Virus record (IMG/VR): IMGVR_UViG_3300045922_000122
Span: 21,622-85,621 of that record
Strand: one strand, 5' to 3'
DNA length: 64,000 nucleotides
From: a virus
Below, in pieces: positions 3,418-25,300 of this stretch; within the stretch, counting starts at the first letter, position 1, and each line of letters starts with the position of its first letter. Made by a program: the position numbers and the translations under genes. The notes under the pieces are model-generated. The model had not been told where the DNA came from. It saw nothing but the letters and a program-made list of their open reading frames with translations, and searched no databases.

Positions 3418-3744
3418 ATGTACACATTTAAATTAAATTGTGATAAGTGGTTTGAAGACGATAAGATAAAAATAATATATTTAAAATACTATGATAATAA
3501 AAGACTTGCTGTATACATTAAAGACAAAGACGGTAAGGATTATTGTATTATAAAAAAAATTCTTATTGATAAAAATAATGAAAGTTTTGATATAGCAACC
3601 GATAAAATCAGAAATTTTGTACGAGATAAACTTCAAGAATGGATAACAGAAGAAGATGAAAAAGAGAGAGCAAGACTTGAAGCTATTGAACGTGAAAAAC
3701 TAGAGGAAAAAGAAAAAATAAAGAGATTAATGGATTTATTTTAA
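3418..3744 (+). CDS. Hypothetical protein with C-terminal coiled coil
   Basis: 108-aa ORF preceded by the TTTAAAACATAAATAA leader. Confidence 0.75.
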   Translation: MYTFKLNCDKWFEDDKIKIIYLKYYDNKRLAVYIKDKDGKDYCIIKKILIDKNNESFDIATDKIRNFVRDKLQEWITEEDEKERARLEAIEREKLEEKEKIKRLMDLF

Positions 3745-4995: not shown

Positions 4996-5064
4996 TAAAA
5001 ATTATAATAAAAGTAGAAATAATTAAAATTATAATTTAAACTAAACCTTTAAAACAATAAAACT

Positions 5065-5364
5065 ATGAACACAAAAAAGATTCAAGAAAAAGAATATGAT
5101 ACACCTGTAATTCGTCAACCTGAGTTTCAAATAATTATTGAAACGTTACAAAGTGCCGTAGCTCGCTATGATGCTATTGTATCCGAAACAAAAAACAAAC
5201 TGCAAATGATTAAAACGTACAATGAACCTTCAACACTAAACGAAGCTGTAAAAGAAAAAGAGACTGAAAGTGTAACAGAAGAAATTAATCGTTTGCTTGA
5301 ACAATTAAATCTACTTAATGAAAAAGCAGAAGGAAATTTAAGGCACTTGAGAGAAATAGTTTAA
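5065..5364 (+). CDS. Hypothetical coiled-coil protein
   Basis: 99-aa ORF with helical heptads. Confidence 0.7.
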   Translation: MNTKKIQEKEYDTPVIRQPEFQIIIETLQSAVARYDAIVSETKNKLQMIKTYNEPSTLNEAVKEKETESVTEEINRLLEQLNLLNEKAEGNLRHLREIV

Positions 5365-8620: not shown

Positions 8621-11600
8621 TTACTTCCAGTATTCTTCTCCAGACCATATAGTTATATTTCTAACAGCTTCACTTGTAACAGGAAATAATTTACCTATAT
8701 ATTTAATAGGTTTGTACTTCTTTTGCATTTCTTCGCTTCCTACAAGTACACCAACAGTATTACCAGTAAAATGAGCTGTAAAATTAACAACATCTGTAAG
8801 TGTAGCTGTTACAGCAAATGGACTTTTTACAATAGCATTAAAAGAAATAGGGTTAACAAAAAATGCTAATTCGTCTTTAAATCTAGTAACTGTTTTTATA
8901 GTAAATTTTCTAAAACCATCTAATTCTTCATCATCATCATCTCCGCCTTTTACTAATACTACTAATGCAAATACACTTAGAAGTGCTTGAAGCTCCATTA
9001 TAGAAGCTTTTACATTTCCTTTCATAAGAGATACATAAGCTTCTTTAGCTCTTTTTATATCTTCAGGGTTATTAATATCTCCACCCATTTTCGTTATTAA
9101 AAAATTTCTATTCTCTTCTTGTAATAAATCAAATTTATTTTCAAATATCTCATCCAAATTAGTACCTATACCAACAATCATACCTAAAGTTTTAGTAGCA
9201 TTTTTAATTATGTTATCTGATATAAAATCTTTAAAAGCTCTATATCTTCCTATTTCAAATTCCTCTGTATTAACATTATATTTTAAACTACCTCCTCTTG
9301 TAGAAAGTAATCTAGGAATCCAATTTCTAAATTGCATTAATGCTCTACCTAATATATATTGATTAACTAACATTATATCATAAGTAGGAGCTACACCCAT
9401 TATAGTTTTAGATACTTCTAATACTTTTCTTCTAAATTTTAAATATTCTTCATTAGAAGCAGCATCAGTAAGACCTTTAATATATAAAGTATCACCTTTT
9501 ATTTCAGTTAAATCTTTTATAGACTTAGAACCTTTAGGAAGTTTACTTAAATGTTTTATCTTACCATCAGCATCAATACCATGAGATTGTAGCATTGCTA
9601 ATAATATTGAATTTATAATAAGGCTATCTGTACCTTTTTGAAGAGCATATATTTTATCATAGGTAAAAAATTTCTCTGCTGCACTTACAGAAAGATTATT
9701 AGCTTTATTAAATCCTTCCATATCACCCATAATATCAAAATATCTTAAAGTAGCAAGTAAATCTTTATTCAAAGCACCTGAAGTAAATGCTCCTATACCA
9801 TGTAAAAATTGACTTCTTGTATAAAAAGTACCTTTAGCTCCTTCTATCAAAGCATTAGTAATACCACCAAAAGCATTAGCAGAAGCTGATACAAAGTTTA
9901 ATCCTAGAGCTTTAGCAGAAACATATTTTAATATTTTATTAAATACTTTAAAAGCACTAATTTCAAAATCATAATCCTCGTATATTACATTACCATCAGC
10001 ATCTCTTTTTATATTACCTTTATCATCGTAAACTGGTCTTTTTCTTTTTATTGTAAAAGATTTATCTGTTTTGATATTCAATCCATAAATAGCTTCAGCC
10101 ATAAAATCTCTAAAGGCTTCTAAAGTATTACTTTCTAAAGCACTTTTAGTTTTATATACACCGTTTTCTTTTTTAGGTCTACCTAATAAATCTGTTACAT
10201 ATAGTTTTTCTAGTTTTAAAGCTTCATATAATAAATGTGCAGAATCTTCTATTTCTCTCATGTGAACGTTATTATAATATTGCATTGCCCACAAAGAAAG
10301 AACTTTTCCTAAATCTGTTGAAGCTTTTTGCCCTAACTTTTCAGTATAAGGTATAGGTATTTTATAATCTATTTCTCCTGTAATAGTATTAAGCTCACCG
10401 TAATTACCTTGATAACTAGCACTTATTTCGTTGAAAAATCTATCTTTAAGTCCAGATATAGCACCTATTCCTACATTATTTAATTGCTCTATAAAGCTTT
10501 GCATTATTTGCGGTATAAAATTTCCTTCATATTCTAGACCTAAATCTTTTCTACTTTTAATTATAAAGTCAGTAAATAAATCATAAAATTCTTTTAATTC
10601 TGGAGTTTTTTGAATAGTTTCATATTCTTTAGACTTAGGTAAATCTTCTTTAAGTCTTAAATAATAACTATTTTTATTTAAATAAACATAAGAATATTTT
10701 TCTGCATTGTATTTTTTATCAAAAAGTTCTACTTTTTCTTTTACTAATTTTTCTTTTTGTTCTTTAGGTTCATTTTTAAAATACTCTTCCCAGTATTTTT
10801 TATTAGATTCAGCAGCTTTATTAAAAGCTTCTTTATCAAAATTATAAAACTTCTTTAAAGTATTGTAATCTTTTTCTTCTCTAGCCTTTTTTATAGCTTC
10901 AAATATACTTCTATCGTATTTATCTATTAAGATAATATTACCTTTATAATCTCTTTTTATCATGTAATTAAACATGTCTTTTAAAGGTATACCTCTAGAA
11001 ATAGAATATTCTTCTAATTTTTTAACAGCACTTTCTATCTTTTTATTAAATTCATCTATAGCTACTTTTGTTTTATTTTTACTACCTATTACTAATTTAT
11101 AAAGAGCTTGTATTTTTGGATGCTGTTGAGTAGAAAAACTATTAAATAATTTTGTCCATATTCCTATATCAGCTTGAGGTAAATCGCTACCAGTAATATT
11201 TTCATTAGCTAAAATTCTTTTTACTTCTGTTTTTACTTTGTCTTCAAATAAGTCCTTACCTTCTTCTATAAGTTCTCTAAACCTATTTATCTTTTCTCTT
11301 ATAGTATTATAATGTTCATCTGGTATATTTTTTCTATATTGATTAAAGTTTATAGATTTATAAAATTCAAAAGAAGAGTTCATTGCTGCTAATCTACTAA
11401 TGTTAGTTTCTAACATCATATTTTGCAACTCGTAAATAGCAGTATTTAAAAACTTATCTATATTTTTAGTAAGCTGTAAATTTGTAATAGTTTCATTTAA
11501 AGTCTTTATTCTATTTGTATTTTTAACTTTTTCTTCTTCTGTAGTAGCAGGTACTTTAAGTATCTTATCTCTTTCTTTAATTAAACCATCTATAATACTA

Positions 11601-13618
11601 TCTATTGTTTTATTTCCTGTACGTTCTTCTTCTATAGGAATTGGATTTAAATACTTTTTATCTTCATTGTATTGTAAATTTCCTATTTCAATTCCTGTAA
11701 CTTCCCAATCAACTGGTTTTTTATCTTTAAAAATAGTCTTAACATTTAAGTTAATAGGTATAAGTCTAGTTTTACCTTCTTGATTAATACCATAAGCTTT
11801 TTCAAGTATGTTTCCATATTCTTTTGCTTGGTTAAGGTATTCTTCTTTTTTAGTTTTATATAAAGTATCGTATATAACTTTACCGTCTTTTTTAATAAAT
11901 TCTGTAAATTTATAATCTATTATATCTCTTTTTAATTTACCATTTTCTTTATATATTACTATTAAGTCTACAGTACCAGCGACCTTTTTTTCTTTATCTC
12001 CTATAATTTGTTCTGTTAAAAATATACTTCCTTTAGGATATTTATTTACTAAAAGTTCTGCAAACATTTCAATTTTAGCAACATCTTCTATTAATATACC
12101 ATCTACAACTTCTCTAGGAATGTTAATATTCTTCTCTCTCATTTCAACAGCTCTATTAATAGCTTTTTGTAGCTGTTGATGCCCTAAAATACCATATCTT
12201 TTATTTACATCATCGTGAATACGTTGCAAATCTGACCTATTTATATCTTTATTGCCTTTGACTTTTCTTGTAACAGTAGTTTTAAATTCTACACCATCTT
12301 CGCTATAATAAAATTCTTCTTCTCCTTTAGAGTTTATTCTTGAGTTTCTAACAATCCTCCTTTCTCTTATCTTATCGGCAGCATTTTTAATTTCCCTTAA
12401 ATCTTCTTCTGAATATTCACTAACTTGTAAAGCACTTAAATCGTTTTCTATATTACTACCATCTGTTATTAAATCGCTAGTATCTTCAAACAGAATTTTC
12501 ATTGCTGTATAGTCAAAAGTATTAGTCTTAAATTTATTAAATAGATTAGTTAAATATTCTATTATTTTATCAAAAATACTTTTAACTTTATTTATTTCTT
12601 TAGTAAGTCTATCAAATTGTTCTTTAGTTAAATCTGTTCTACCTGCCCTATACTGACGCATTATACTTGCAGTTATTAATTTAACAGCAGCTTCTTCTTT
12701 AAATTCTAATTCTGTTGTATATATACCTGCATAATCTTCAAGTACTTGTTTATAAGTTTCAGTATTTTTAACTTCGCTCATCATTTTTTGGTACAAATAA
12801 GTACCTCTCATCATCCATAAAATAACGTGAGCAGTTTCTTCTGGTATAGTATCTGCATTTCTATTTTTTTCTAAAACTTCTACTATATATCTAAGATTTC
12901 TTTTTAAATATACAGCTCTACCAAAAGCATCAGGTATAGGATTTCCTTCAGCATCTTTTATGCTATCTAATCCTTTAACATCTACACCTAATTTTCTAAG
13001 AAAATTTACCAATTTATACTCTAAATTAGCATCTTTTCTTGTAGGATAATTATTTTTAATTTCAGCAGTAACTCTATTATATTCTCCAGTAACAGATACA
13101 TTTATATTTAATAAAGGATATTTTGCTTCAAATTCTTTTTTAAGTCTAGCTGGACTAATTCTATAACTAAATGTACGATTTTCACTATTAAATTGTTCTA
13201 ATTGTTTTTGTGCAGCAGAACTTTTAATGCTATAACTAATATCTTCTTTTATATTTTTAGCTACATTATCCATTTCTTTAATATAAGCTTGCTTTAAACT
13301 TTCAATATCTAAAAGTTCTATTTTAGGACTGTAAGTTAATTTTATTTTACCTTTTTCAGCAGGTTCTGTAGTTACTGAAATAGCTGGATGGTTTTTATAT
13401 TTAGCTTTTTCTATACTAGCTACATCTTTATATACAAGTATACTTTTTATACCATCATTAAGTTTTTTAAGTATTTCTACAGAAGGTATAGTATTAACAT
13501 CTGTATTTGTCTTTTTGTTATAGTCTAATATTATAGCATCTATAACCAAAGAAGGTAAATTGTAATATCTTTGTATTTCTTTGTATCTAGTATGATTTCT
13601 ATTATAACAAATATTCAT
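8621..13618 (-). CDS. Giant virion cargo protein with degenerate zincin, PD-(D/E)xK nuclease-like domain and C-terminal membrane segments
   Basis: 1665 aa; EETAH...EE (12827-12841); AGTVDL...IIDYK (about 11910-11980); hydrophobic C-terminal helices; located next to the crAss-type RNAP. Confidence 0.8.
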   Translation of the reverse strand: MNICYNRNHTRYKEIQRYYNLPSLVIDAIILDYNKKTNTDVNTIPSVEILKKLNDGIKSILVYKDVASIEKAKYKNHPAISVTTEPAEKGKIKLTYSPKIELLDIESLKQAYIKEMDNVAKNIKEDISYSIKSSAAQKQLEQFNSENRTFSYRISPARLKKEFEAKYPLLNINVSVTGEYNRVTAEIKNNYPTRKDANLEYKLVNFLRKLGVDVKGLDSIKDAEGNPIPDAFGRAVYLKRNLRYIVEVLEKNRNADTIPEETAHVILWMMRGTYLYQKMMSEVKNTETYKQVLEDYAGIYTTELEFKEEAAVKLITASIMRQYRAGRTDLTKEQFDRLTKEINKVKSIFDKIIEYLTNLFNKFKTNTFDYTAMKILFEDTSDLITDGSNIENDLSALQVSEYSEEDLREIKNAADKIRERRIVRNSRINSKGEEEFYYSEDGVEFKTTVTRKVKGNKDINRSDLQRIHDDVNKRYGILGHQQLQKAINRAVEMREKNINIPREVVDGILIEDVAKIEMFAELLVNKYPKGSIFLTEQIIGDKEKKVAGTVDLIVIYKENGKLKRDIIDYKFTEFIKKDGKVIYDTLYKTKKEEYLNQAKEYGNILEKAYGINQEGKTRLIPINLNVKTIFKDKKPVDWEVTGIEIGNLQYNEDKKYLNPIPIEEERTGNKTIDSIIDGLIKERDKILKVPATTEEEKVKNTNRIKTLNETITNLQLTKNIDKFLNTAIYELQNMMLETNISRLAAMNSSFEFYKSINFNQYRKNIPDEHYNTIREKINRFRELIEEGKDLFEDKVKTEVKRILANENITGSDLPQADIGIWTKLFNSFSTQQHPKIQALYKLVIGSKNKTKVAIDEFNKKIESAVKKLEEYSISRGIPLKDMFNYMIKRDYKGNIILIDKYDRSIFEAIKKAREEKDYNTLKKFYNFDKEAFNKAAESNKKYWEEYFKNEPKEQKEKLVKEKVELFDKKYNAEKYSYVYLNKNSYYLRLKEDLPKSKEYETIQKTPELKEFYDLFTDFIIKSRKDLGLEYEGNFIPQIMQSFIEQLNNVGIGAISGLKDRFFNEISASYQGNYGELNTITGEIDYKIPIPYTEKLGQKASTDLGKVLSLWAMQYYNNVHMREIEDSAHLLYEALKLEKLYVTDLLGRPKKENGVYKTKSALESNTLEAFRDFMAEAIYGLNIKTDKSFTIKRKRPVYDDKGNIKRDADGNVIYEDYDFEISAFKVFNKILKYVSAKALGLNFVSASANAFGGITNALIEGAKGTFYTRSQFLHGIGAFTSGALNKDLLATLRYFDIMGDMEGFNKANNLSVSAAEKFFTYDKIYALQKGTDSLIINSILLAMLQSHGIDADGKIKHLSKLPKGSKSIKDLTEIKGDTLYIKGLTDAASNEEYLKFRRKVLEVSKTIMGVAPTYDIMLVNQYILGRALMQFRNWIPRLLSTRGGSLKYNVNTEEFEIGRYRAFKDFISDNIIKNATKTLGMIVGIGTNLDEIFENKFDLLQEENRNFLITKMGGDINNPEDIKRAKEAYVSLMKGNVKASIMELQALLSVFALVVLVKGGDDDDEELDGFRKFTIKTVTRFKDELAFFVNPISFNAIVKSPFAVTATLTDVVNFTAHFTGNTVGVLVGSEEMQKKYKPIKYIGKLFPVTSEAVRNITIWSGEEYWK

Positions 13619-13621
13619 ATT

Positions 13622-14017
13622 TTAATAGCATTTATCTAACATTTCTTTTGTTTTATCTACACCATGTACAGCAGCAAATATTCTAATAGCAGCTTCAGCT
13701 TCTTCTATTGTATTAACATTAAATGCTTTTAATGTTATTTCTTTAACAATGGGCGAAGATAATAATTTTTGTTTAAAATTACTAATTAAATTTTCAATAT
13801 TATTTTTATCAAATTGACTGGTTTCTGCTTTAGTAATATTATTATTTTTAACAAATTCTCTAAACCCTTCTATATCTTTTCTACCTGTTTGATTTACATA
13901 ATCAGTAAATGTTTGTATAGCTTGTTGTTTTTGTTCAGGTGTTATAGTATTAACACTTTTATATAATTCTTCTAAAGAATTATATCTTACTCCTCTATAT
14001 GTTGGTTTGCAGCTCAT
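13622..14017 (-). CDS. Small protein sharing the KDIEGFREFVK module with the RNAP C-terminus
   Basis: 131 aa; ATGA overlap with the upstream gene; contains one copy of the 43-bp repeat. Confidence 0.75.
   Translation of the reverse strand: MSCKPTYRGVRYNSLEELYKSVNTITPEQKQQAIQTFTDYVNQTGRKDIEGFREFVKNNNITKAETSQFDKNNIENLISNFKQKLLSSPIVKEITLKAFNVNTIEEAEAAIRIFAAVHGVDKTKEMLDKCY
13836..13878 (+). repeat. 43-bp direct repeat, copy 1
   Basis: ATATTATTATTTTTAACAAATTCTCTAAACCCTTCTATATCTT; 40/43 identical to 16665-16707. Confidence 0.9.
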
Positions 14018-16314
14018 TGTTTTTCTGTTTTATTATTTTGTTGATTTAAAAGACCTATACCAATAGCAGGAGGAATTATACCAAAAGCTTTTATTTCTCC
14101 TTTACCTTCTTTAAACTTTTTAGGTATATCAAATTCATACCAAGTATTACCTTTACTATCTGTAACTTTTTTAGGTTCTACGCCAAATAATTTTTTAATA
14201 ATCTTAGGTTGTTCTGCATATTTTTTAAGAATAGTTTGATGTTCAGGAGAATAATTTACTGAAGTTTCTTTTTTTCTATATCCTTGCACTTTAGCAGCAG
14301 TTTCAGGAGTAGGCAATCTTACTTTATTTATATCGCCTCTTTTACCTGCATAATCTACTAACTCTTGTAAATATCTTTTCTGATGATTTTTATCTAATAG
14401 TTGTTTTTGAGTAAAGTTTTCTATTTCTGCTTTTTTCATTAAATTAAATTCTTTTTGTTTTTTAGCCTCATTAAAAGCTCCTAACTTTAAAAGTTCTTTT
14501 TCTTGATTTTCCATATTCATTAAAGCTTTTAATTCAAAATCTTTATCAAAAGATTTTGGCATAATTCTATGAGTACCTTGAAAAGCATCAGATTGTATTT
14601 GAGTTACTGTTAATACATCAGGAGTTTCCTCATCTCTTAAAAAATGAATATGACCTAATGTTTCATCTGGATTACCATGAGCATTTGAACCTCTACCAAA
14701 TTTATTTTTATTTCCTAATATAAGAGTTTTGTTTTCTAATGGTAAAGATTTTGTATAATTTATAGCTGCCTCTTTATTTGGAAAATTTAAACCAAATATT
14801 CCTTCTATTTCATATTTACCCGAATTTTTATGAAAATATATTCTACTAGGGTCTTCAATAGCTTGTAAAATTTCTTTTTTATTACTAGGATATCCTATGT
14901 TCTCTAAACCATAATCACTCCTATAGTCAACAAGTCGTCTTTCTAAAGGAATAAGGTTTTCTTGTATTAATTTTCTAAAATCATTAAAATCCATTTTTTT
15001 AGGAATGTTTTCTCCTAACCATTGTTTAACTAAAGCTACTTTTTCAGCACCTCCTGATTCTTTACCTATAATTGATAAAGCTTGTTCTATGTTTATTAAT
15101 CCTGTTTTAGGTTCTACTATTTTACTAATAGGACCATCAGACATTGTAGATTTTAAATGTAGTCCAGGTAATTCTTCTAATTGCCAAGTTTTATCTTGTT
15201 TTTCAGTAGTATTATATTTTTGTATTAAAGCTTTGTTATCTAATATTTCTTTATCAAGTTTAGAAATAGCTTCTTCTTTACTTAATCCTTTTACAGCATC
15301 ATAGGAATCATCTAACTTTTTAAATTTACCTGTTTTGTATAATTTATTCCATATACTTAATCCAACAAGATTTAAAGGGTCTGTTACAATATCTTCTACA
15401 ATACCAGCTTTATTCTTCTTACCTTTAATAGCATCACTAAAAGAATAATCATCTTTATAAGCAGCTTGTACCATTTTAGAAGGTATAGTTAATGGATTTA
15501 GTATTTTAGAAGCATCACCTAATTTACTCATTATAGGATTATCAGCATACTCTTTTAACATTTCTTGCTTTTCTCTATCACTATAATCAGGAGAATTTAA
15601 AATGTTTTTAATTGTTTGTGATGGATTTTGTTCTATTAATGAAGTCAAACCTCTTTTAGTATCTGCCCATAAAGAAGATTGATATTTAGGATTTCTTTTA
15701 ACGAATTCTTCTTCTTTACTCGTCATTGAATTTAACCATTCAGCTCTACTTAAATTTCCTTGCGGTTTATTTTTAATTAATTGTTCAGAAACATAATCTA
15801 ATGATTTTTTTTCATATTCTTCATCAAGTCTTTTTGGATAATTTGTTTCTGTATTACCAAGACTTTTTGCAAAAGGTGTTAAATATTTTTGTATATAATC
15901 ATATTTAGGATTTGTTTTTTCATATTCTCTTTTATACTTTAACCAATCAGGAGCTTTATCTTCTACTACAAGTTCTTTTAAAGGAGTAGCTATATAAGTA
16001 TTAGTATTTTTATCATAAGTCATTAATTTACCTGAATTATATAAATCTTTATATTCTTTAGAAGATATATCATACTCTTTAATAATACCTTTTTCATCTT
16101 TAACTTTAATTTTCTTACTAGGAATAAGACTACCATCTTCTGCATAATCAGACATTACTGGTAATGTATCTACAAAAGCATCTACACAACTCCAGCACTT
16201 ATCTTTAATCATACTTTCTACTTTTGCTCTATCTTTTTTAGGTATAATTACAATATCTCCGTATGAATTACGAATTGCTAATTCACCGCCTTCTACTTCT
16301 ATTTGTTTTTTCAT
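14014..16314 (-). CDS. Putative virion cargo/effector protein (EVEGGE N-terminus, DPLNLVG segment, H-x-H...QIQSDxxQ domain)
   Basis: 766 aa; IEVEGGE at the start, YAEDG, TDPLNLVG, GHIHF...TQIQSDAFQ and a hydrophobic C-terminal tail. Confidence 0.7.
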   Translation of the reverse strand: MKKQIEVEGGELAIRNSYGDIVIIPKKDRAKVESMIKDKCWSCVDAFVDTLPVMSDYAEDGSLIPSKKIKVKDEKGIIKEYDISSKEYKDLYNSGKLMTYDKNTNTYIATPLKELVVEDKAPDWLKYKREYEKTNPKYDYIQKYLTPFAKSLGNTETNYPKRLDEEYEKKSLDYVSEQLIKNKPQGNLSRAEWLNSMTSKEEEFVKRNPKYQSSLWADTKRGLTSLIEQNPSQTIKNILNSPDYSDREKQEMLKEYADNPIMSKLGDASKILNPLTIPSKMVQAAYKDDYSFSDAIKGKKNKAGIVEDIVTDPLNLVGLSIWNKLYKTGKFKKLDDSYDAVKGLSKEEAISKLDKEILDNKALIQKYNTTEKQDKTWQLEELPGLHLKSTMSDGPISKIVEPKTGLINIEQALSIIGKESGGAEKVALVKQWLGENIPKKMDFNDFRKLIQENLIPLERRLVDYRSDYGLENIGYPSNKKEILQAIEDPSRIYFHKNSGKYEIEGIFGLNFPNKEAAINYTKSLPLENKTLILGNKNKFGRGSNAHGNPDETLGHIHFLRDEETPDVLTVTQIQSDAFQGTHRIMPKSFDKDFELKALMNMENQEKELLKLGAFNEAKKQKEFNLMKKAEIENFTQKQLLDKNHQKRYLQELVDYAGKRGDINKVRLPTPETAAKVQGYRKKETSVNYSPEHQTILKKYAEQPKIIKKLFGVEPKKVTDSKGNTWYEFDIPKKFKEGKGEIKAFGIIPPAIGIGLLNQQNNKTEKQ

Positions 16315-16315
16315 A

Positions 16316-19300
16316 TTATTTTAAAGTTTTTGAATTAATAACTAAACCATTTTTTGCTTTAATTTGACCTTGTTTACCAGTCATTTTAATAGTTCCATTA
16401 CTTATTTCTATATCAATACCTCCTCTTTCATGGGAAGCTCCTTTAAATTCTTTAACAATTTCCCATTTACCGCCTTTTGTAAATTTATTAAAACTCATTC
16501 CATCTTTAGCACAAGGATTACCTTCTTCATCTGTATATGTTATTTCAGATTCATCAATAACATCAAACCCTAAAGTTTTATATATTTCATTAGCTAATTG
16601 AAGATTTTTATCAAATAATTCTTCTACCTGTTGATTAATATTTTCATATTGATTATTTTCTACTATATTATCATTTTTAACAAACTCTCTAAAACCTTCT
16701 ATATCTTGTTTACTTCCTAGTATATGAACTTGTTCTGGTCTAAATACTACAAAAGATTCATCATTAGTCCCTTCTCCTGTATTAATATATACAAATCCAT
16801 CAAATTTTGAATTTAATAATTTATTTTCAACTATTTTTTTATCATTAATATCAGGAATTTCTTTTCCATTAAAAGTAGATTTATTAGGGTAATTATTTTT
16901 TACTTTAAACCAATCATCACCTTTTGGAACATCATAATCTTGATTTATTCCAGTTTCAAAACCAGCATTTTGTATATCTTTTATAAACCTTGCAGGAGAT
17001 TCATCTCCAGAATCTCTTTTAAATAGAGGATTTTTAATGTTTATAATACTCAAATACAATGATTTACCTTTTTCTTCAGCATATAATTTTCTAGTTAAAG
17101 CAGCTTTTTTAGAACCAAAATGAATAAAATTATTATTTTTTGGTATATATCCATAATGATAAACAATATCTTTAACTTTACTATCAGGAAATATAGTATC
17201 TAAATAAGCAGAATATTGTTCTAGAGTTCCAATAGAGGCTAATTCACGATATTGATTAAATAATTCTTTTACTCCTGTTTTAATCTGATTTTCTCTTTGA
17301 TTAAAAATACCACTAGCTCTATTTTGAAGTTCTCTTAATCTTTCAGAACTAAAACCAACTTCACCTGTTTCTAAATCAACTCTTTTTAGAAAAGCATCTG
17401 TAAGTATTTGTGTTAGTTCTTGTTTTTGTAGTTTAGATAATGAATTAAATTTATCCATTATCCATTTTACAAATTTAGTCCACCAATTCCAAGCTTCACC
17501 TCTTTGTTTAACAGCTTGTTCGCCAATAGACTGAACAAGAGCTTCTTCACTTCCCCACTTTCTAATAGCTTCTTGAACTATTGGTGTGTTTCTAAACCAA
17601 GCTATATAATGGTGAGCGTATTCGTGTGGTAATGTATCTATTCTTTGGTTTAAAGCATCTATAAGAACAGTACCGGCTTTAATATTAGCTTGACCTATTA
17701 TTCTATTAAGTTCATCTTTTTGAAATTGTATATTTCCAATTTTTTCAAAATATTTATATTTTCTAATAGCTTCATTAGAAATTACTTGATATAAATAAGA
17801 AGCATCAAAATTTGTAGATTTTAAAAAGTTTAAAACAGTATTATATTTATTAAATTGAGAATGAGCTTTATATCTATTTAAGATTAAATCTGAAAAAGTA
17901 TCTACTTTACTTATAGTATCTAATTTATTTATAGATAGATTTTTTACAATATTGTCTTTATTACTCCAATATTGTTTTAATAAAAATGCTGCTTGTTCAT
18001 TTGATTTATATTTAGATAAAATATTATAAGGTAAGTATGACCTTAAAGTATATTGTTGATTTTTATCAAACTTTTTAATAGCATTTTCTATACCTTCAAG
18101 TTTTACTTTTTTAGTAAAAGAAGCAAATAATCTTGAAAGCGAATAAACTTTATTTACATATTCATTTATTGATTTTAATTTTTGTAAATACTTCTCTCTT
18201 TTATCTAATAAATCATTTATAAAATCTTCAGATTTTAAATACTTATCTAAAGATTGTAAAGATTCTTCAAAATTATTGTAAGATATACGATTTTCAAAAC
18301 TATCACCTATTACTGACTTAACTAAAGAACGTAAACTAAAAGTACTTGTTTTTTTAGGTAGATATTCCCTAGTTTTTAATTTTAACTTGTTTTCATAATA
18401 TTTAATAACTTGTTTTTCTTCTTTTGAAGATAAAGGCTTTTCTTTAACTTCTTTTTTTCTGTTTTCTATTTCTTTTATATATTCTTCTATATAATTTTTT
18501 TCTTCATATTCAGAATTTTTTATTTCATTTTCTAAAAGATTAATATATTCTTTTGGATTACTAATATTTTGTTCAATGTATTCTCTAAACGGAGGCGTTG
18601 CATCCGCACCTGCCCATCCTTGAGCTTCTAATATACGATATATAAATCTACCTGCTTCTTTTGGACTTAGATTATAGTTAGCTTGAATATCATCTAATGT
18701 TAAAGGAATAAGTCTTGGTTTATATGTTTCTTTAACTTTTACATGTGAACCTAATCCAAAAAATTCATTAGATATAAACTCATGTTGAGGCATATCATAA
18801 ATATAAATAGCATTATTTATAGCTACAGCAGAAACATAATGAGTTATATCAAAATTTCCAAGAGGTGATTTTACAAAAACACTTAATTGGTCTCCATTAG
18901 GAGATGAAGGGTAAGGATTTAAACCTATTTTTTTTAAATATTCTGTAGATTCTTTTGCTGTAAAATTACAAATACCGTTAGGACATAAAGTATCTTGGTT
19001 TTCAAATAATTCAAATTTATTTATTTCATCTGGTATTGTTTGATTGAAAACATTTTTATCTGTTTCCCATGTAGGATTATTAGTAATATTTAATCCTAGT
19101 TCAGGATAAAGAGATTGTATTTTTTCTTGTAATTCTTTTACTAAGTTTAAATCTAAAGGATAATAATTATTATTACTAATTTGATTAAATGTTTGATTAT
19201 TACTTTTATTTATATATAAACCAACGCCGTTAAACGGTTGATATTCTAATCCTTTATCTAATAAATATTTTCTAATAGCACCTTCTCCAACAGAATTATG

Positions 19301-22300
19301 ATTAGAATTTGCATCATTTTCGTTATCAGCGATAAAAAATTTAACTCCTTGAGATAATGCTAAATCAATAGCTTTTTTAGTTTTTTCTAAATTTTCAGCT
19401 TGATTAGGTCTACCTTTACCATTTACAGAAATCATTATAGTTTCACCAGCTTTAAATGAAGTTCTAGTACCACCAAAAGCATTGGCATATTTATATGTAC
19501 TTGTACCTGGTTCTCCATAAGCTATAATACCATCTGCATAATCAGCTTTTATTTGGTCTTTTGGAAATTTAGCATTAATATTTATAGGATTTGATTTTTT
19601 AATTGGTAAATTAGTAAATTGTTTATTAGAATAAATCTCAGAAGCTGTTTGTCTTTGTCTATTGGGTTCACTTAACAAATTTTGATTATTACCTACTTCA
19701 TTAATTGTATTAGTAGAATTAATACTACCAGAATTTAAATTATTAATATCAGTAGTCCATATTTTACCTTTTATATTAGCTATAACAGGTAAAGGTATTT
19801 CTTGATAAATATAAAATCTACCAGAGCCATCTAATCCAATTCTTTCATAAAGTCTGTAAATATCATTATTGTCTGTTGTTTTTATAAAAGGAGCTGCTTT
19901 ATAATCATTTACTCTTAATATTAATTTAGAAGCTTTACTATAACTAACATAAGGAACTATATCTGAATTTCTCCAGTTGTTTATGTAAAAATTTCTTCTG
20001 AATATATTAAAAGTATTAATATGTGCATTAATATCTATTTTATCTAATATAGTTTTAACTACCTTTCTAGAAATTACTGCTGGAAGTATTTGATTTATAC
20101 TAAATTGCGTAAAGTTATAACCAGATTGAAGCATAGAAAACTTAATTAAATCTGTTGCTAAGCTTAAATCTTTACCTCCTCTATTAAACATATCTTCTAT
20201 AGCAGAAGCTATTTCTTGCATAACATAAGCATTAAAGTTTCTATTAGATAGTCTTATATTATCTATACCATCTCCATCTGGATTTATCATAGGTATTAAA
20301 TAATCAAGTCTACTATCTTTAACTTCTTCTTGATATTTTTTAAGTCTTTTAGGTAAACTTTCATCTCCTTTAAATAAAGATTGCCAATTAGCAAATTTTT
20401 CTCCAGATGTTAATATAGATATTTTAAAATCATTCTTTAAAAGTTTAGATACTTTATTTCTATTTTTAGATTTAAAAACTCTTTCTAAAAGTTCTTCTCT
20501 AAAAGAATCTAGACTATAAACAACTTCATCAAATTGTTCTGTAAAAATAAGGTCTTTAAATGTAAATAAAGAAGCATTATATACTTTTTTAAACGAATCT
20601 AAAAATGTAAATTGTAAATATCTATCTAGATTTTTAAAATTACCACTAGTTAAAATTTCTCTATTTGTTTTTAATAAATCTTTTACAGCATCTGTACTTC
20701 CTAACCCTCTAGTATCAAAAGAAAATGCACTTCGCATTTGACTTATTTTAAAAGCAACTTTTTTATAGGTTAAGAAGTCTTCTAATATATTTTGTTGTAC
20801 TTGTCTATTAAATTGTTGTAATTGCTCTAATGTAAGTTTATTGTATTTATAATCACCATATTTAGTTTTTAATTGTTCTAGTTCATCTTCTTTAGTAGAA
20901 ATCATAGTAGATATTGATTTATGTCTACTTATTATTTCTACATATTCTCTTATTATAGGTTGGCTTATAAAGTATAATGCTGTTTGAGAAGGTAATCCTG
21001 CTGAAACTAAGAATAGAAAAACATCTGCTGTTTCAGCATTTAGATTAAACCTTTCCATAACTTCTGGGTTCTTTACAACGTCTACTGCTAAAGAAACACC
21101 TTGTCCTAATACATTAGATATTTTTTCATTAGTAGGATTACCATTTTCATCTACTGTATATATATTACCTAGACTGTAATATCCATTTGAGTCTTTTTCT
21201 ATTCCTTTAAAATTTATAGAAAAGTTTAAAACTTCATCATCAAGTTTAAGATTACTATTTATTCTAATATCAGCTATTTGAAATAAAGGATGACTTTTGT
21301 TAGCTAAAGCAAATATACCAACTAATCCTTTACCATACCAAAACATATTTCTAAGAGTAGAAATTGTTTTGAAATTAAGTAAATCTGTAAAGCTATAATT
21401 ATTAATAACTCTATCAGGATAAAACTCTTGTAATTTCTTTTCTATAACTAAAGATAAATCTTTATATTTACTAATACTGTTAGGTTCAAGTTTATCTTTA
21501 GGACTTCTACTTTCTAATAAAGCTATTGTATATTCCAGTATTTTATTTTGCAAAGCTTTTTCTCTAAGTTCTGGATTATTTAGATTTTCTTCATTAGGTT
21601 CTACATAAATATATTCATATTTTTTAAGATTTTTATTTTCTTCATTTTTTCGTCTATTAAAATTAATTAAAGCTAATTTAAGATTAGATATAGCTGTTTT
21701 AGTATCTTCACTATATGATTTATATGCTTTAGATTCTTTAAGTTTACCTAATTCACCTTTATCACTTTTTAAACTATATGAATTTAAAGCTTGTAATAAT
21801 TCTGTAAAGGTATAATTACTAGATTTTAATAAATTTTTTATAGCAATTCTATCATCTTCATCTGTATAATTAAAATACTCATAACTATTTTCAAAATCTT
21901 CTAAATCTATTTTATCTACTTTTTTTCTTATAAAATTAGGAAAATAAATATTAATTTTATCAAAGTCAAAGTCAGAACCTACTTTTTTAGTAATACCGCT
22001 AGGAACAATACAAGTATTACCGTAAGACTTAGGTAAAAATCCTTTAACAACTATACTTTCTAAAGAGTTAAGTTGCTCTGTAGGAATACGAAAGCCATAC
22101 ATTTTTAAATTATTAGGGTCTATCTTATTTATAGTTTGACCTTCAGAAAGAATGTTACCAAAATAATAAGGTAAATATATTTCCATAGTTTTACCATTTT
22201 CATAAAACTTTAATCCATTAGATTTATATTTACCATTAATTCTTTCTCTTACTTTTAATTCTGTTCCTGTATCTGGAAATTGAACTAAAGATTTACCAAA

Positions 22301-25300
22301 TCTTTTTTGATTAACTGCTTTATTTTCAAATATAGAATATAGAATTGGTTCTAATTTGTTATAATTAACTAATAAATCTAAATATACAGGTTTTCCTTTT
22401 TCAAGACCTTCTAATTCCAATATAAGAGCTTCTATTTGATTATCAGGTATTTCTCCTCTTGAATTAATTTCTTCTATTAATAATTTCTTTAAAGCTTCTC
22501 CACCATCAGAAAATACAGCTCTACCATTTTCATATTTTAAATTTAATTCTTGTTTTACTTTATCTAAATAATAATCTGTTAAATCAGATTGTGCTTTAAA
22601 TAAATCTCTTACAGCTTCTTCTATAGTTAGAACTTTATTTTTAATAGTAATAGTACCTTTTTTAAATGTTCCTTTGTCTGCTAAATCTGTAGCAATGATA
22701 GCAGCTTCTTGCGTACCTCTAGAAGTTTCTTTTGCATCTTTAGGAGAATTTTCTACTTGTATTCCTATACTTTCTATTGGTATTTCTGTAACAAGTTCAT
22801 TGTCTATATCTGCTATTTCTCCAGATTCATTATAAAGAGGTTGACCTTGATATTTACCTTTTTCTCCTTTTTTTAATTTAAACCCTATTTTATTTCCACT
22901 TCTAAATACACCAATATCAATTTGGTTATTCCTCATTTTTTCCAATAGAGAGTAAAGAGCAGGGAAAGCTTCTGAATCCTCTTTAATAGCTTTTATTAAA
23001 GTAGGACTTAATCTAAGTAAAGCAAATTTAACATAAAAAGGTTTTAATTCTTCTTCACTAGAATTTCCATATATAACAGGTTTAATACTAGGTAATATAG
23101 AATTAGCTTCTTCTCCTTTACTTTCTAATTCCCAAGCTTTATTCATTTCTTCAGACCAACTATCTGACCTGAATAATAAATCTCTATATAAATCATCTAA
23201 TATAATACCGAAAGAATCAGTTTCATCTATTTCATCGTAACCTTTTACACCTAAAATACTTAATTCTTCTTTTACTGAAACTATGTCTTCAAATGTAACT
23301 ACTTTTACTTTTAATCTGTCTTCTCCTGTTTTACCATCTACTCTAGGCATATAAGTATCCATATATTCATTTATAACAGGAGTATTAATAACTTGTTTAG
23401 TAGTAGCAACAGCACCTGCATACCTTTTAAACATATCTATAAAACTAGCTGTTAAATCTGGTATATTACCTTTATATTTAGTAATATAATAAGCAGGATT
23501 TCCAAAGAGTACTTTTGTTTGTTCTATTGCACTTATAATATAATTAGTAGTAAAAGCAGTAACTACTTTTTCTATTTGTTCTTCTGTTAATTCTTTTTCT
23601 TTACCTTCTTTTATATTTAATACCTCTCTTAAAATTTCTTTACTTACATTAATTTTATTAGATTTAATTATTCCATTATTTTTAAATAAGTTATAATTAG
23701 ATGTAATTTGAAATTCTACATAATCTTTTATCTTATTTTTTACAACTTCTTCACTATCAATTATATTTATAGTATTACCATTTTTATCTCTAATATTTTT
23801 AAATATAACTAAATCGTTTAAAAATTGTTCTCCATTTACTATAATTTTATCTTTATTTTTCTTTTGTTTTATAATTTCTAATTCAGTTAAATAATATTTA
23901 TATAACTGGTCTACAGTTTGCTTTACCATATCAAACTTACTATAACCAGATATATTTATAAAAAAGTTATCTAAACTAAATGTTCTAAAACTTTTCTTAT
24001 CTCCTGTAATTAAAAAGCTAAAGTTTTTAGATAGTATATTATTAAGTTCTACAATTAGAAAATCTTTAAAACTTAATTGTGAAACATCTTGACCTGTTTC
24101 AGCAGCTTTACTCATACCATTAGTAATACCTACTCTTATGGCATTTTTCTTTTTTGAAATTCTTTCTAATATTATACTATCTCTAGCGTATATATTAGTA
24201 TTTTTATTTAAAAAGTTAGGTATTATCCCTGAAGAAAGTTTATATACTAATCTAGATATGTAATTATGTAGAGTAATAGAATAAATCATTTCTCCTTTTG
24301 AAGTAACAGCTACGTTTTCTACAACATCTTCATTAAAAGAAGATTCTAATTCTACTAATCTCTTTAATCTACTTAAAGAAGTATTAGTATAGAAATCTTT
24401 ACTTCCTAATTTATCTAAAGTTATCTTTTCTGATTTTAAATCGTTTATTAATAGAGTTATACTTTTTAAATCTTCTATTCCATTTTCAGAATTTAAATAA
24501 TTTTTAACAGCTTCTTTATTTTCAAATTTTATACCTAGTTTTTCTAGAAAATCTAATTGTTGAGTTGTAGTAGAAGCTAAATATTCTTTTCCTTTTTTAG
24601 TTAATCTTATTGTTCCATTTTCTCTATAAACTAAATCATTATTTATAGTTAATAGATTATTTAACCACTTTCTTAAAGTAATATCTTGAGTTTTAGTGGT
24701 ATTTGTATTAACTCTATTTACAGTACCGTCTCTATTTACTATTAAATTTTCAAAGTTTTCTTTATGTTTAGAAAAAGAATTGTAAAAAGAAACTATAAAT
24801 TGTGCACTATAATAATCTCCATTTTTAGCTCTATCTTCTAATAAATTTAATAGATTATAAAGTTTTCTAAAGCCTGTATCTTTACTATTTAAAAGCCTAC
24901 CTTTAATTTCTTCATAACTAATAGAATTAGCTAATTTATTCATTAGCTTATTTATAAATTTATCATATTCATAAGTATCAGCAAAAGAAGCTAAAACTAA
25001 TCTTAAAGGAGTTTTTATTTTAGATTTTTGATTTATTAAATACGCTTCTTTATAACTTTCATTAGATACTTCTTTACTAATAACCTCATCTTTACCTAAA
25101 GATAAATCTGATTCTTCTTCTGAAATGTCATCTTCTTCTATATCTTCCTCACTTGGTTGTGTATAACCTAAAGCTTTTATAAAATCTTTATGAATAACTA
25201 CTGCTTGTTGTAATATTTCTTTCTTTCTTTCATAAGGAAGTTCTTCAAATTTTTGTGTTAACCCATCTTCTTCTAACATTTCTTTAAATGAAGCGTTATA

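What the first reader, a model, noticed from the sequence alone, without database searches (positions are those of the whole stretch)
13622..17290. Swappable effector-cassette system at the C-terminus of the injected RNA polymerase
Seen in the sequence: the RNAP polyprotein ends with a helical module, VKELF..YRELA.IGT.EQYSAYL-[insert]-GSKQDIEGFREFVK. A second copy then begins (VEELFDKNLQLANEIYKTLGF) and breaks off. A matching second half with no insert (ITPEQKQQAIQTFTDYVNQTGRKDIEGFREFVK) lies about 2.6 kb downstream in the 131-aa ORF. The two KDIEGFREFVK-coding stretches form a 43-bp direct repeat (40/43 identical; 13836-13878 and 16665-16707) that brackets the 766-aa gene. Recombination between them would delete that gene and fuse the RNAP in frame to the 131-aa ORF's tail (...EMLDKCY). 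Inference: a repeated helical scaffold serves as a landing site where effector domains and whole cargo genes are gained, lost or swapped. This resembles a polymorphic-toxin-like payload system attached to a virion-delivered enzyme.
Basis: partly seen in the sequence, partly recalled or inferred. Interest (0 to 1): 0.85.

Follow-up and report, generated by a model that had tools for sequence, protein, structure and literature searches.

The report
Boundary motif of injected phage enzymes
The 43-base repeat encodes a short peptide that normally ends an ADP-ribosyltransferase domain in injected phage proteins. It occurs once on the polymerase with that domain and once in a small neighbouring protein without it, so this is a case of known domain shuffling and not an active switch.

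Summary
The 43-nt repeat (13836-13878 / 16665-16707, 40/43) is real and non-random, and an independent contig reproduces it.

The repeated peptide (DIEGFREFV) is the conserved C-terminal cap of that unit, found in 132 of 149 family representatives. The DNA identity needs no recent exchange. Given this phage's AT-rich codon use, two independent encodings of the shared residues would differ by 3.6 nt on average, and 3 are seen.

The 131-aa ORF is a real gene. It belongs to a family with an invariant 20-residue leader (MSCKPTYKG.RYNSLEELY) and payloads from 88 to 2145 aa. Relatives carry the ART between the same flanks ("filled"); this phage and others lack it ("empty").

Similarity to relatives starts and stops at these boundary motifs, so evolutionary module swapping is supported.

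The proposed deletion-fusion was not seen. It would remove elements conserved in all eight relatives.

The 766-aa gene carries a mobile GNAT-like domain.

Overall this is a new variant within the published "polyvalent protein" class. This scan has noted similar cassette swapping on other crAss-like genomes.

The parts
16316..32287 (-). 5323-aa giant virion-RNAP-type polyvalent protein
   Evidence: ORF. GSDFDFDK at residues 3437-3444. tblastn of residues 3200-3700 hits 128 crAss-like phage records, some annotated as RNA polymerase. No Pfam or PHROG hit.
17612..17626 (-). HEYAH (HExxH) motif, candidate zincin metallopeptidase unit upstream of the ART
   Evidence: Regex hit at residue 4888. Motif only; no family hit.
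17201..17272 (-). N-terminal flank 'A' of the ART unit (VKELFNQYRELASIGTLEQYSAYL)
   Evidence: Family consensus GVxELFxxNPELAxIGTxEQYSQYL. Most of the 149 hits align from query residue 2-3.
16712..17200 (-).
   Evidence: 1346 representatives at E<=1e-3. 27 of 43 aligned homologues hit PF18760, while the window copy itself has 0 hits. AF2 pLDDT 79. Best structural matches are ART folds, Z 5-7.1 over model residues 36-193.
16665..16713 (-). Repeat copy 1: C-terminal cap 'B' of the ART unit (KQDIEGFREFVKNDNI)
   Evidence: A matching motif is present in 132 of 149 family representatives.
16319..16627 (-). Conserved tail module starting with A' (VEELFDKNLQLANEIYKTLGF) and ending with ...GGIDIEISNGTIKMTGKQGQIKAKNGLVI
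   Evidence: 50-75% amino-acid identity to the ends of the tail-bearing proteins of L018-L025. blastn similarity starts at 16627 in L018, L019 and L022.
14014..16314 (-). 766-aa cargo gene with a conserved N-terminal 64 aa (MKKQIEVEGGE...) and a variable body
   Evidence: N-terminus 49-91% identical in L018-L025; the rest is not alignable there.
14122..14955 (-). Mobile GNAT-like (acetyltransferase-fold) domain with a helical insert
   Evidence: Residues 376-744 recur at varied positions in 796-2043-aa proteins of 13 loci. AF2 pLDDT 79.5. Foldseek best match NAT9, E 9.9e-4, and the list is dominated by GNATs. VIA Z up to 6.6 over model 85-362.
13622..14017 (-). 131-aa gene: leader + A + B + unique tail
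   Evidence: Start overlaps the 766-aa gene's stop (ATGA). Family found.
13958..14017 (-). Invariant 20-residue leader MSCKPTYRGVRYNSLEELYK
   Evidence: 18 of the first 19 positions are invariant or nearly so in 13 aligned proteins. The same start is found on proteins of 88-1657 aa, and it or a close variant (MSCNP, MACLP) on open frames of up to about 2140 aa in 8 IMG/VR loci.
13836..13884 (-). Repeat copy 2: 'B' peptide (RKDIEGFREFVKNNNI) directly after helix A, with no ART core
   Evidence: The same 'empty' junction occurs in P0154-P0158, P0166 and L018.
8621..13618 (-). 1665-aa last cargo gene (starts MNICYNRN)
   Evidence: Weak similarity to the proteins that follow the leader protein in L003, L021 and L022. 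Its single Cys is at residue 4.

Best explanation
This is the 3' end of the virion-RNA-polymerase 'polyvalent' gene of a crAss-like phage from a hot-spring or microbial-mat metagenome, plus the three cargo genes that follow it.

The repeated 43 bases encode one boundary peptide (DIEGF[R/K]EFV). This peptide is the conserved C-terminal cap of ART-PolyVal ADP-ribosyltransferase units. On the polymerase it closes a complete unit: N-cap helix, ART core, C-cap. In the 131-aa protein the N-cap helix runs straight into the C-cap with no ART core. That 'empty' form recurs in other phages. Orthologous leader proteins of relatives have the ART between the same caps.

The DNA-level repeat follows from the shared peptide and extreme AT codon bias. 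It is not a dedicated recombination site.

Over evolutionary time the conserved boundary elements are the points where related phages exchange modules. These elements are helix A, cap B, the A' start of the tail module, and the invariant gene starts MSCKPTYKG... and MKKQIEVEGGE.... The payloads they flank (ART, GNAT-like and others) therefore differ from phage to phage.

Inferred, not shown: the proteins are packaged and injected with the DNA, as shown for crAss001 cargo proteins. There the ART would ADP-ribosylate, and the GNAT-like domain would acylate, host targets early in infection.
For: - ART identity: 8 of 10 homologues hit PF18760 at E<=0.01, 5 above the cut-off; 27 of 43.
- Cap B is a family signature: 132 of 149 representatives; consensus.
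- Codon-bias test: 3.6 differences expected, 3 seen, P(3 or fewer) = 0.49.
- Peptide comparison: the two copies share 13/16 residues, while unrelated family members reach 12/16 against the RNAP copy and 11/16 against the 131-aa copy. The two copies are therefore only marginally closer to each other.
- Leader family with variable payloads.
- Filled versus empty slot: ART lies at residues 33-179 of the L019 leader protein and 40-216 of the L025 leader protein. It is absent in the window, in L018 and in P0154-P0158.
- Mosaic boundaries: versus L018 there is 87.9% nt identity over 16627-16123 and 84.6% over 14043-13830, with nothing in between.
- Conserved gene order (tail, then MKKQIEVEGGE gene, then MSC-leader gene) in 8 distinct related loci: L003, L018-L023, L025.
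- Structural-gene context (capsid, portal, terminase) on the same strand.
- Packaging and ejection of crAss001 RNAP-associated cargo proteins: passages of PMC10172136.
- The polyvalent-protein concept, ART fused to virion RNAPs, and the cassette idea: passages of PMC5512222.
Against: - The window's own ART copy gives no direct Pfam hit. Its Tyr position reads His in the alignment, so activity is uncertain.
- All relatives are distant: at most 56% amino-acid identity in the 766-aa protein, and no match in INPHARED. Breakpoints at motifs could therefore simply reflect domain boundaries under different constraint, not recombination events.
- Both copies have Arg in GF[R]EF, which is rare in the family (9 of 143 motifs), and both have KN[D/N]NI after it. 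This leaves room for a short gene-conversion patch.
- Packaging and injection of these particular proteins are untested.
- Only assembled contigs could be laid, not raw reads. Rare deletion variants cannot be excluded.
Confidence: 0.6

Rival explanations
1. One reading: the two 43-bp repeats are an active switch. Recombination between them recurrently deletes 2829 bp (tail module, 766-aa gene, leader) and fuses the polymerase-ART to the 131-aa ORF's tail, producing alternative payload forms within populations.
For: - The repeat is real and in frame.
- Giant RNAP-bearing relatives that end in a terminal Cys, as the fusion would, exist in other lineages: P0083, P0114, P0118, P0138.
- Both copies share the rarer Arg and the KN[D/N]NI continuation.
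Against: - DNA identity equals the codon-bias expectation.
- No contig joins the two repeats.
- No protein in the searched collection carries the 131-aa ORF's tail behind anything else. All hits cover only its first 30-56%.
- The deletion would remove three elements conserved in all 8 related loci.
- 43 bp with 3 mismatches is a poor substrate for homologous recombination (established knowledge, recalled).
Confidence: 0.07
2. The boundary peptides are functional tags at the protein level: cleavage sites for the adjacent zincin-type peptidase, or docking or ordering signals for loading into and ejection from the virion. They are kept in the 131-aa protein for that reason. This adds to the best explanation and does not exclude it.
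For: - Extreme conservation of short junction peptides next to hypervariable bodies.
- The leader varies at some synonymous sites while the peptide is kept: TGC/TGT 4:4, CCA/CCT 5:3, GAA/GAG 4:4 in 8 sequences. This points to selection on the protein.
- An HExxH unit lies about 300 residues upstream.
- Iyer et al. propose autoproteolytic release by MPTase domains (passage).
Against: No cleavage, binding or packaging data exist. Several codons of the leader are also invariant at the DNA level (TCT 8/8, TTA 8/8), which codon bias may or may not fully explain. No structure of the caps in a complex is available.
Confidence: 0.25
3. The 131-aa ORF is only a decaying remnant of an ART gene whose core was deleted, and it has no function of its own.
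For: - It has caps A and B but no core.
- Its last 70 residues have no detectable relative.
- It has no Pfam or PHROG family.
Against: - The same empty A-B junction is kept in at least 7 other divergent proteins with intact frames: P0154-P0158, P0166 and L018.
- The start codon is coupled to the upstream stop.
- The leader is invariant.
- Its only two cysteines sit at residues 3 and 130, following a family-wide end pattern.
Confidence: 0.08

Closest known systems
Polyvalent proteins of phages and conjugative elements (Iyer, Burroughs, Anand, de Souza, Aravind 2017, PMC5512222; passages read). One example is the Roseovarius Plymouth podovirus 1 virion RNAP fused to an ART domain.
   Same: A giant virion-polymerase protein carrying a zincin-type motif and an ART of the polyvalent type. 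Neighbouring genes carry further enzyme domains (GNAT-like). Domain content varies between relatives. The paper already floats cassette-like recombinational variability for one system.
   Different: The polymerase here is the crAss type, not the N4/T7 type. The conserved cap peptides, the filled/empty slot, and the invariant MSCKPTYKG and MKKQIEVEGGE gene starts were not mentioned in the passages I read. The terms 'linker', 'cysteine' and 'crAssphage' have 0 occurrences in that paper. Its supplements were not seen.
RNA-polymerase-associated cargo proteins of crAss001 (gp45, gp46, gp47, gp49, gp50; Bayfield et al. 2023, PMC10172136; passages read)
   Same: A block of very large proteins next to the virion RNAP. 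In crAss001 they were detected in virions by mass spectrometry and are thought to be ejected partly unfolded before the DNA.
   Different: No sequence match between these particular genes and crAss001 cargo genes was tested, except in the RNAP core. crAss001 splits the RNAP module into several genes. No ART or leader family is described in the passages read.
Polymorphic toxin systems with orphan cassettes (Rhs, CdiA).
   Same: A constant part and a variable payload are separated by a short conserved demarcation peptide. A downstream partial copy shares that peptide, so a crossover would swap the payload and delete what lies between.
   Different: There is no immunity gene after the payload (ORF map). 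Delivery is by virion injection and not by secretion. Several payloads sit side by side instead of one at the end. No recombinant was observed.
T4 internal proteins and Alt, with their N-terminal capsid-targeting sequence. Alt is described in the Iyer 2017 passages; the targeting sequence is recalled.
   Same: A short conserved N-terminal peptide sits on otherwise unrelated, fast-evolving proteins that travel in the head and enter the host. One of them is an ADP-ribosyltransferase.
   Different: There is no sequence similarity. No prohead protease site was identified here. A targeting role for the MSCKPTYKG leader is only a hypothesis.

Membership tests
ART-PolyVal (Pfam PF18760; Tox-ART-HYD2-like clade) | Sequence homology to family members over the ART core, directly or through intermediates | tested here: met
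   phmmer finds 1346 representatives at E<=1e-3 and 706 at E<=1e-10. 27 of 43 aligned homologues hit PF18760 at E<=0.001. 5 of 10 tested pass the curated cut-off over the region aligned to the window. The window copy itself gives no direct PF18760 hit, so membership is transitive.
ART-PolyVal (Pfam PF18760; Tox-ART-HYD2-like clade) | ADP-ribosyltransferase fold | tested here: met
   AF2 model with pLDDT 79. VIA-align ranks 1-3 and 5-21 are all ART-fold chains (diphtheria-toxin homologues, NatT, MbcT, ParT, RES, PARPs), with Z 5.0-7.1, rmsd 2.9-5.9 and 90-126 aligned residues over model 36-193. Z is middling. Foldseek gave no match at E<=0.001, but its weak list is also mostly PARP and DT chains.
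ART-PolyVal (Pfam PF18760; Tox-ART-HYD2-like clade) | H-Y-D active-site configuration (as stated in Iyer 2017, passage) | tested here: inconclusive
   His of VYH is present in a nearly invariant column. The aromatic position of strand 2 reads His in the window (IHFGS), as in some homologues. An Asp is present in FDGF. I did not map these residues onto a solved structure.
ART-PolyVal (Pfam PF18760; Tox-ART-HYD2-like clade) | NAD-dependent ADP-ribosylation activity | not testable with these tools
   Needs an enzyme assay.
Polyvalent proteins (Iyer et al. 2017) | Several unrelated effector-type domains in one phage or plasmid polypeptide | tested here: met
   RNAP motif at 3437, HExxH at 2174 and 4888, and an ART unit at 5030-5192 in one 5323-aa ORF.
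Polyvalent proteins (Iyer et al. 2017) | Encoded with virion or late genes of a phage | tested here: met
   Major head protein, portal, large terminase and a virion structural protein lie on the same strand downstream in the window. The record is an 85.6-kb virus contig.
Polyvalent proteins (Iyer et al. 2017) | Delivered into the host with the DNA | not testable with these tools
   Inferred from crAss001 virion proteomics.
crAss-type virion RNA polymerase (phi14:2 gp66 type) | Homology to crAss-like RNAP genes around the catalytic Asp motif | tested here: met
   GSDFDFDK at residue 3437. tblastn hits 128 records of crAss-like, Bacteroides, Flavobacterium and Cellulophaga phages at 23-42% identity, with features annotated RNA polymerase or RNAP catalytic subunit in several. 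The catalytic role of the motif is recalled, not read.
crAss-type virion RNA polymerase (phi14:2 gp66 type) | Match to the solved structure or a two-barrel fold | tested here: inconclusive
   phmmer of residues 2701-3999 against PDB sequences gave 0 matches at E<=0.01. No fold prediction was made.
Polymorphic toxin systems with orphan cassettes | Constant region and variable payload separated by a conserved demarcation peptide | tested here: met
   Leader plus helix A (plus cap B) is constant and what follows is unrelated in 13 short and 8 longer proteins. Of 159 helix-A occurrences, 134 continue into ART, 12 directly into B, 6 into SLNKPNTNP, 2 into IGVTDIGYHH and 5 into something else. The sample is biased towards ART.
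Polymorphic toxin systems with orphan cassettes | Cognate immunity gene directly after each payload | tested here: not met
   The ORF map shows the 131-aa gene followed 3 nt later by the 1665-aa gene, and the 766-aa gene overlapped by the 131-aa gene. No small ORF lies between them.
Polymorphic toxin systems with orphan cassettes | Observed recombinants between the main gene and a downstream cassette | tested here: inconclusive
   No joint in contigs and no fused protein in the databases. Only contigs and distant relatives were available.
GNAT acetyltransferases (for the 766-aa protein, residues about 454-731) | GNAT fold | tested here: met
   AF2 pLDDT 79.5, pTM 0.77. Foldseek rank 1 is NAT9 with AcCoA (E 9.9e-4, prob 1.00), and nearly all listed rows are GNATs. 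In VIA, 43 of the 50 rows are GNAT-type acyltransferase chains, Z 5.1-6.6. No Pfam hit.
GNAT acetyltransferases (for the 766-aa protein, residues about 454-731) | Acyl-CoA binding motif and catalytic residues | not tested
   Not examined.

The most novel reading that the evidence does not exclude
The invariant gene starts (MSCKPTYKG.RYNSLEELY and MKKQIEVEGGE), the cap helices A, B and A', and the terminal cysteines together form an address-and-junction code for crAss-type injected cargo. Whatever enzyme lies between two tags would be loaded, strung in order and delivered. The tags would double as the crossover points by which phages trade payloads, making this a plug-and-play effector delivery system that could be reprogrammed experimentally.
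Probability: 0.25. Interest if true: 0.7.

Novelty: new variant of a known kind. Interest (0 to 1): 0.42.

Why it matters
Crass-type phages are thought to inject megadaltons of protein with their DNA, but how cargo is chosen, ordered and diversified is unknown. This locus gives concrete, testable sequence elements: a 20-residue invariant leader, two cap peptides around an ART domain, and filled and empty forms of the same slot in related phages. These could be used to test whether short tags direct loading or processing of cargo. They also give a way to catalogue the enzyme repertoire these phages deliver. The finding also shows that short DNA repeats in very AT-rich phages can arise from conserved peptides alone.

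Tried and rejected
- Close relatives for a presence/absence test were not found.
  - INPHARED megablast of 12500-18500 gave no match. tblastn with the 131-aa protein, the 766-aa protein and the RNAP C-terminus (360 aa) also gave no match.
  - IMG/VR scans with the 131-aa and 1665-aa proteins confirmed no locus.
- Deletion junction. Only Logan contigs could be laid, not raw reads.
  - No contig joins the two repeats.
  - The three listed joints rest on 21-57-nt sides from other contigs. I read them as unrelated organisms or a diverged strain.
  - Contigs cannot show rare variants, so this says nothing about absence.
- Direct family assignment failed. Pfam and PHROGs gave nothing usable for the RNAP C-terminus, the 766-aa, 131-aa and 1665-aa proteins or either RNAP half. 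The only results were a weak phrog_21376 hit and noise-level Pfam hits on the 131-aa protein.
- PDB sequence search of the RNAP core gave 0 matches.
- Foldseek of the ART model gave nothing at E<=0.001.
- I considered that the 131-aa and 1665-aa genes form one read-through gene. They are in the same frame, separated by TAA plus one codon. I dropped this because TAA reassignment is not expected and the 1665-aa gene has its own conserved-type start.
- I considered the 43-bp repeat to be a recent duplication or conversion tract. I rejected this as unnecessary after the codon-bias simulation, but it is not excluded.
- Literature searches found no paper describing these cap peptides or leaders.
  - 'ART-PolyVal' occurs in 2 records of one work.
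  - 'Crassvirales' + 'RNA polymerase' + 'ADP-ribosyltransferase' + 'domain' gave 0.
  - The nine 'crAss-like' + 'ADP-ribosyltransferase' papers listed (ten hold both terms) were seen as listings only.
  - Subscription papers and supplements were not searchable.
- Rows left out of counts:
  - The window's own proteins (P0001-P0004) were left out.
  - L024 (near-identical to L023) and the own-genome loci L001, L002, L027 and L028 were left out.
  - The samples were gathered by similarity to the ART module or the leader. They over-represent ART-containing proteins.


Full report
**What is there**

The window is bases 21622-85621 of an 85.6-kb IMG/VR virus record. The same DNA is held by runs labelled hot-spring and microbial-mat metagenome.

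Four consecutive minus-strand genes fill 8621-32287:
- a 5323-aa ORF (16316-32287)
- a 766-aa ORF (14014-16314)
- a 131-aa ORF (13622-14017)
- a 1665-aa ORF (8621-13618)

Further along the same strand lie a virion structural protein, the major head protein, the portal and the large terminase.

The giant ORF has GSDFDFDK at residue 3437. Its residues 3200-3700 match 128 records of crAss-like phages by tblastn, several annotated as RNA polymerase. Pfam, PHROGs and a PDB sequence search gave nothing.

**The observation**

The repeat is real. It is 49 nt at 90% identity at 13836-13884 / 16665-16713. The 43-mer recurs once with 3 mismatches, against none in 100 shuffles.

In codons, the island is exactly 14 codons, DIEGFREFVKN[D/N]NI. 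It has 38/42 identical bases, with three synonymous and one non-synonymous change. Similarity stops abruptly on both sides.

Both copies are in frame, so the predicted fusion would be in frame. A 39.8-kb Logan contig reproduces the arrangement with no difference, though probably from the same sample. In the whole 85.6-kb record the module matches only these two places.

**What the 'insert' and the flanks are**

A full HMMER search with RNAP residues 5000-5260 found 1346 cluster representatives at E<=1e-3.
- Eight of ten homologues tested hit Pfam ART-PolyVal (PF18760) at E<=0.01, five above its cut-off.
- 27 of 43 aligned homologues hit it at E<=0.001. The window copy itself does not.
- An AlphaFold model (pLDDT 79) finds ART folds as its best matches. 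These are diphtheria-toxin homologues, NatT, MbcT, ParT and PARPs, at Z 5-7.1 over model residues 36-193.

The flanks are that unit's own conserved caps. 132 of 149 representatives carry a motif like HILGSKQDIEGFKEFV at the end of the unit. The alignment consensus in front of the core is GVxELFxxNPELAxIGTxEQYSQYLDTIFPDSKVKDIVYHG.

**Is the DNA repeat more than a shared peptide?**

No. The window has 26.9% G+C. With its codon usage, two independent encodings of the 13 shared residues differ by 3.6 bases on average. Three are observed, and P(3 or fewer) = 0.49.

At the peptide level the two copies share 13 of 16 residues. Unrelated family members reach 12 of 16 against the RNAP copy and 11 of 16 against the 131-aa copy. 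The two copies are only slightly closer to each other than to strangers. Both have the rarer Arg (9 of 143 motifs), so a small conversion patch cannot be ruled out. Nothing requires one.

**The 131-aa ORF**

It is not debris. Thirteen proteins of 88-207 aa share its first 20 residues almost letter for letter (MSCKPTYKG.RYNSLEELY). They also share helix A and, in most, cap B, and then diverge completely.

Eight longer proteins (254-1657 aa) begin the same way. They continue into ART domains, HExxH units and other modules. One of them (P0164) joins the leader to the C-terminal tail of the 766-aa protein.

In eight IMG/VR loci the leader gene sits in the same place (L003). The order is:
1. a giant protein ending in a conserved tail module
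2. a gene starting MKKQIEVEGGE-like
3. the MSC-leader gene
4. a gene starting M.KC.N

In L019 and L025 the ART core lies directly after the leader, between helix A and cap B (residues 33-179 and 40-216). In the window, L018, P0154-P0158 and P0166, helix A runs straight into cap B.

Across the sequences I held, helix A is followed by:

| Continuation after helix A | Count (of 159) |
|---|---|
| ART core | 134 |
| Cap B directly | 12 |
| SLNKPNTNP continuation | 6 |
| IGVTDIGYHH variant | 2 |
| Something else | 5 |

These counts come, and the sample is biased towards ART.

**The 'second copy that breaks off'**

VEELFDKNLQLANEIYKTLGF is the start of the conserved tail module. Protein similarity to all eight relatives begins there. 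Nucleotide similarity begins at base 16627 in L018, L019 and L022, and within 15 nt of it in L020, L021 and L025. The same ELFxxNxxLA...LGF element also opens other modules in other proteins.

**Evidence for swapping**

Against L018, the window is 87.9% identical in DNA from the first codon of A' through the first 64 codons of the 766-aa gene (16627-16123). It is 84.6% identical from the leader through cap B (14043-13830). There is no similarity in between or beyond.

The body of the 766-aa protein (residues 376-744) occurs at different positions inside 796-2043-aa proteins of 13 other loci. Patches reach 85-91% DNA identity. Its model (pLDDT 79.5) has a GNAT acetyltransferase fold with a helical insert (an Atlas lead).

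The content of this block therefore differs between relatives, and the seams fall at the conserved motifs. Because all relatives are distant, I cannot separate true crossover points from ordinary domain borders.

**The proposed deletion**

No contig, locus or database protein shows the RNAP-ART fused to the tail of the 131-aa ORF. The deletion would remove the tail module, the MKKQIEVEGGE start and the leader, which all eight relatives keep. I give the active-switch reading about 7%.

**How it most likely works**

Shown:
- domain identities by homology and fold
- conservation of caps and leaders
- variable payloads
- seams at motifs

Inferred:
- These proteins are packed in the capsid and ejected ahead of or with the DNA, as reported for the RNAP-associated cargo proteins of crAss001 (passages of PMC10172136).
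- The ART modifies host proteins on entry, as argued for ARTs of polyvalent proteins by analogy with T4 Alt (passages of PMC5512222).
- The caps and leaders persist because they serve folding, processing or loading. As a by-product they provide the short homologies at which co-infecting phages exchange modules.

**Comparison and novelty**

The closest published frame is the polyvalent-protein class. It already includes ARTs fused to virion RNAPs and a remark that nearby small ORFs may act like polymorphic-toxin cassettes. What I did not find in the passages read or in six literature searches are:
- the cap peptides
- the filled and empty slot
- the invariant leaders

Earlier notes of this scan report module swapping at linkers on other crAss-like genomes (e1-5347233, e1-6051891, e1-5894292). 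They also report terminal-cysteine patterns (e1-5780228, e1-5997569, e1-6123287). I saw these only after forming my reading.

My verdict is a sound example and a new variant of a known kind, of moderate interest.

Noticed in passing
window 13622-14017, 13607-13618, 16510-16512; proteins P0005-P0172: Cysteines sit at protein ends. The 131-aa protein's only Cys are residues 3 and 130. The 1665-aa protein's only Cys is residue 4. The 766-aa protein has only C40 and C43. The RNAP has 4 Cys in 5323 residues, one of them 65 residues from its end. Among 161 related proteins that start with Met, 107 have a Cys in residues 2-6, 93 have one in the last 6, and 74 have both. Overall Cys content is 0.17%. 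Earlier notes of this scan suggest end-to-end links.
   Followed up: partly
window 16319-16470 and 16240-16314: The end of the RNAP (ASHERGGIDIEISNGTIKMTGKQG...) and the start of the 766-aa protein (IEVEGGELAIRNSYGDIVIIPKK) look like two copies of one roughly 25-residue strand-rich motif lying across the gene border. Both are conserved in all eight related loci.
   Followed up: no
window 13619-13624: The 131-aa and 1665-aa genes are in the same reading frame, separated only by TAA and one codon.
   Followed up: partly
L023:11345-12106: In one relative, a gene starting MKQGIYKIENPKGSIYIGQS lies directly after the leader-family gene. It looks like a GIY-YIG homing endonuclease (a name I recalled, not tested) and may be a mobile insertion in the cargo block.
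   Followed up: no
window 15362-15625: A 1709-nt contig in the same runs matches this part of the 766-aa gene, with 12 differences in 124 nt and 6 in 57 nt. A diverged strain or relative therefore coexists in the sample.
   Followed up: no
window 13958-14017 and L018-L025 leader starts: The leader is nearly invariant in DNA as well: TCT 8/8, TTA 8/8, AGA 7/8. Upstream sequences are unrelated. Codon bias may explain this, but a nucleotide-level role was not excluded.
   Followed up: partly
P0164 (102 aa): A natural chimera: the MSCKPTYKG leader plus helix A is joined directly to the conserved C-terminal tail of the 766-aa protein family (..WYEFDIPKKFKEGKGEIKAF..).
   Followed up: no
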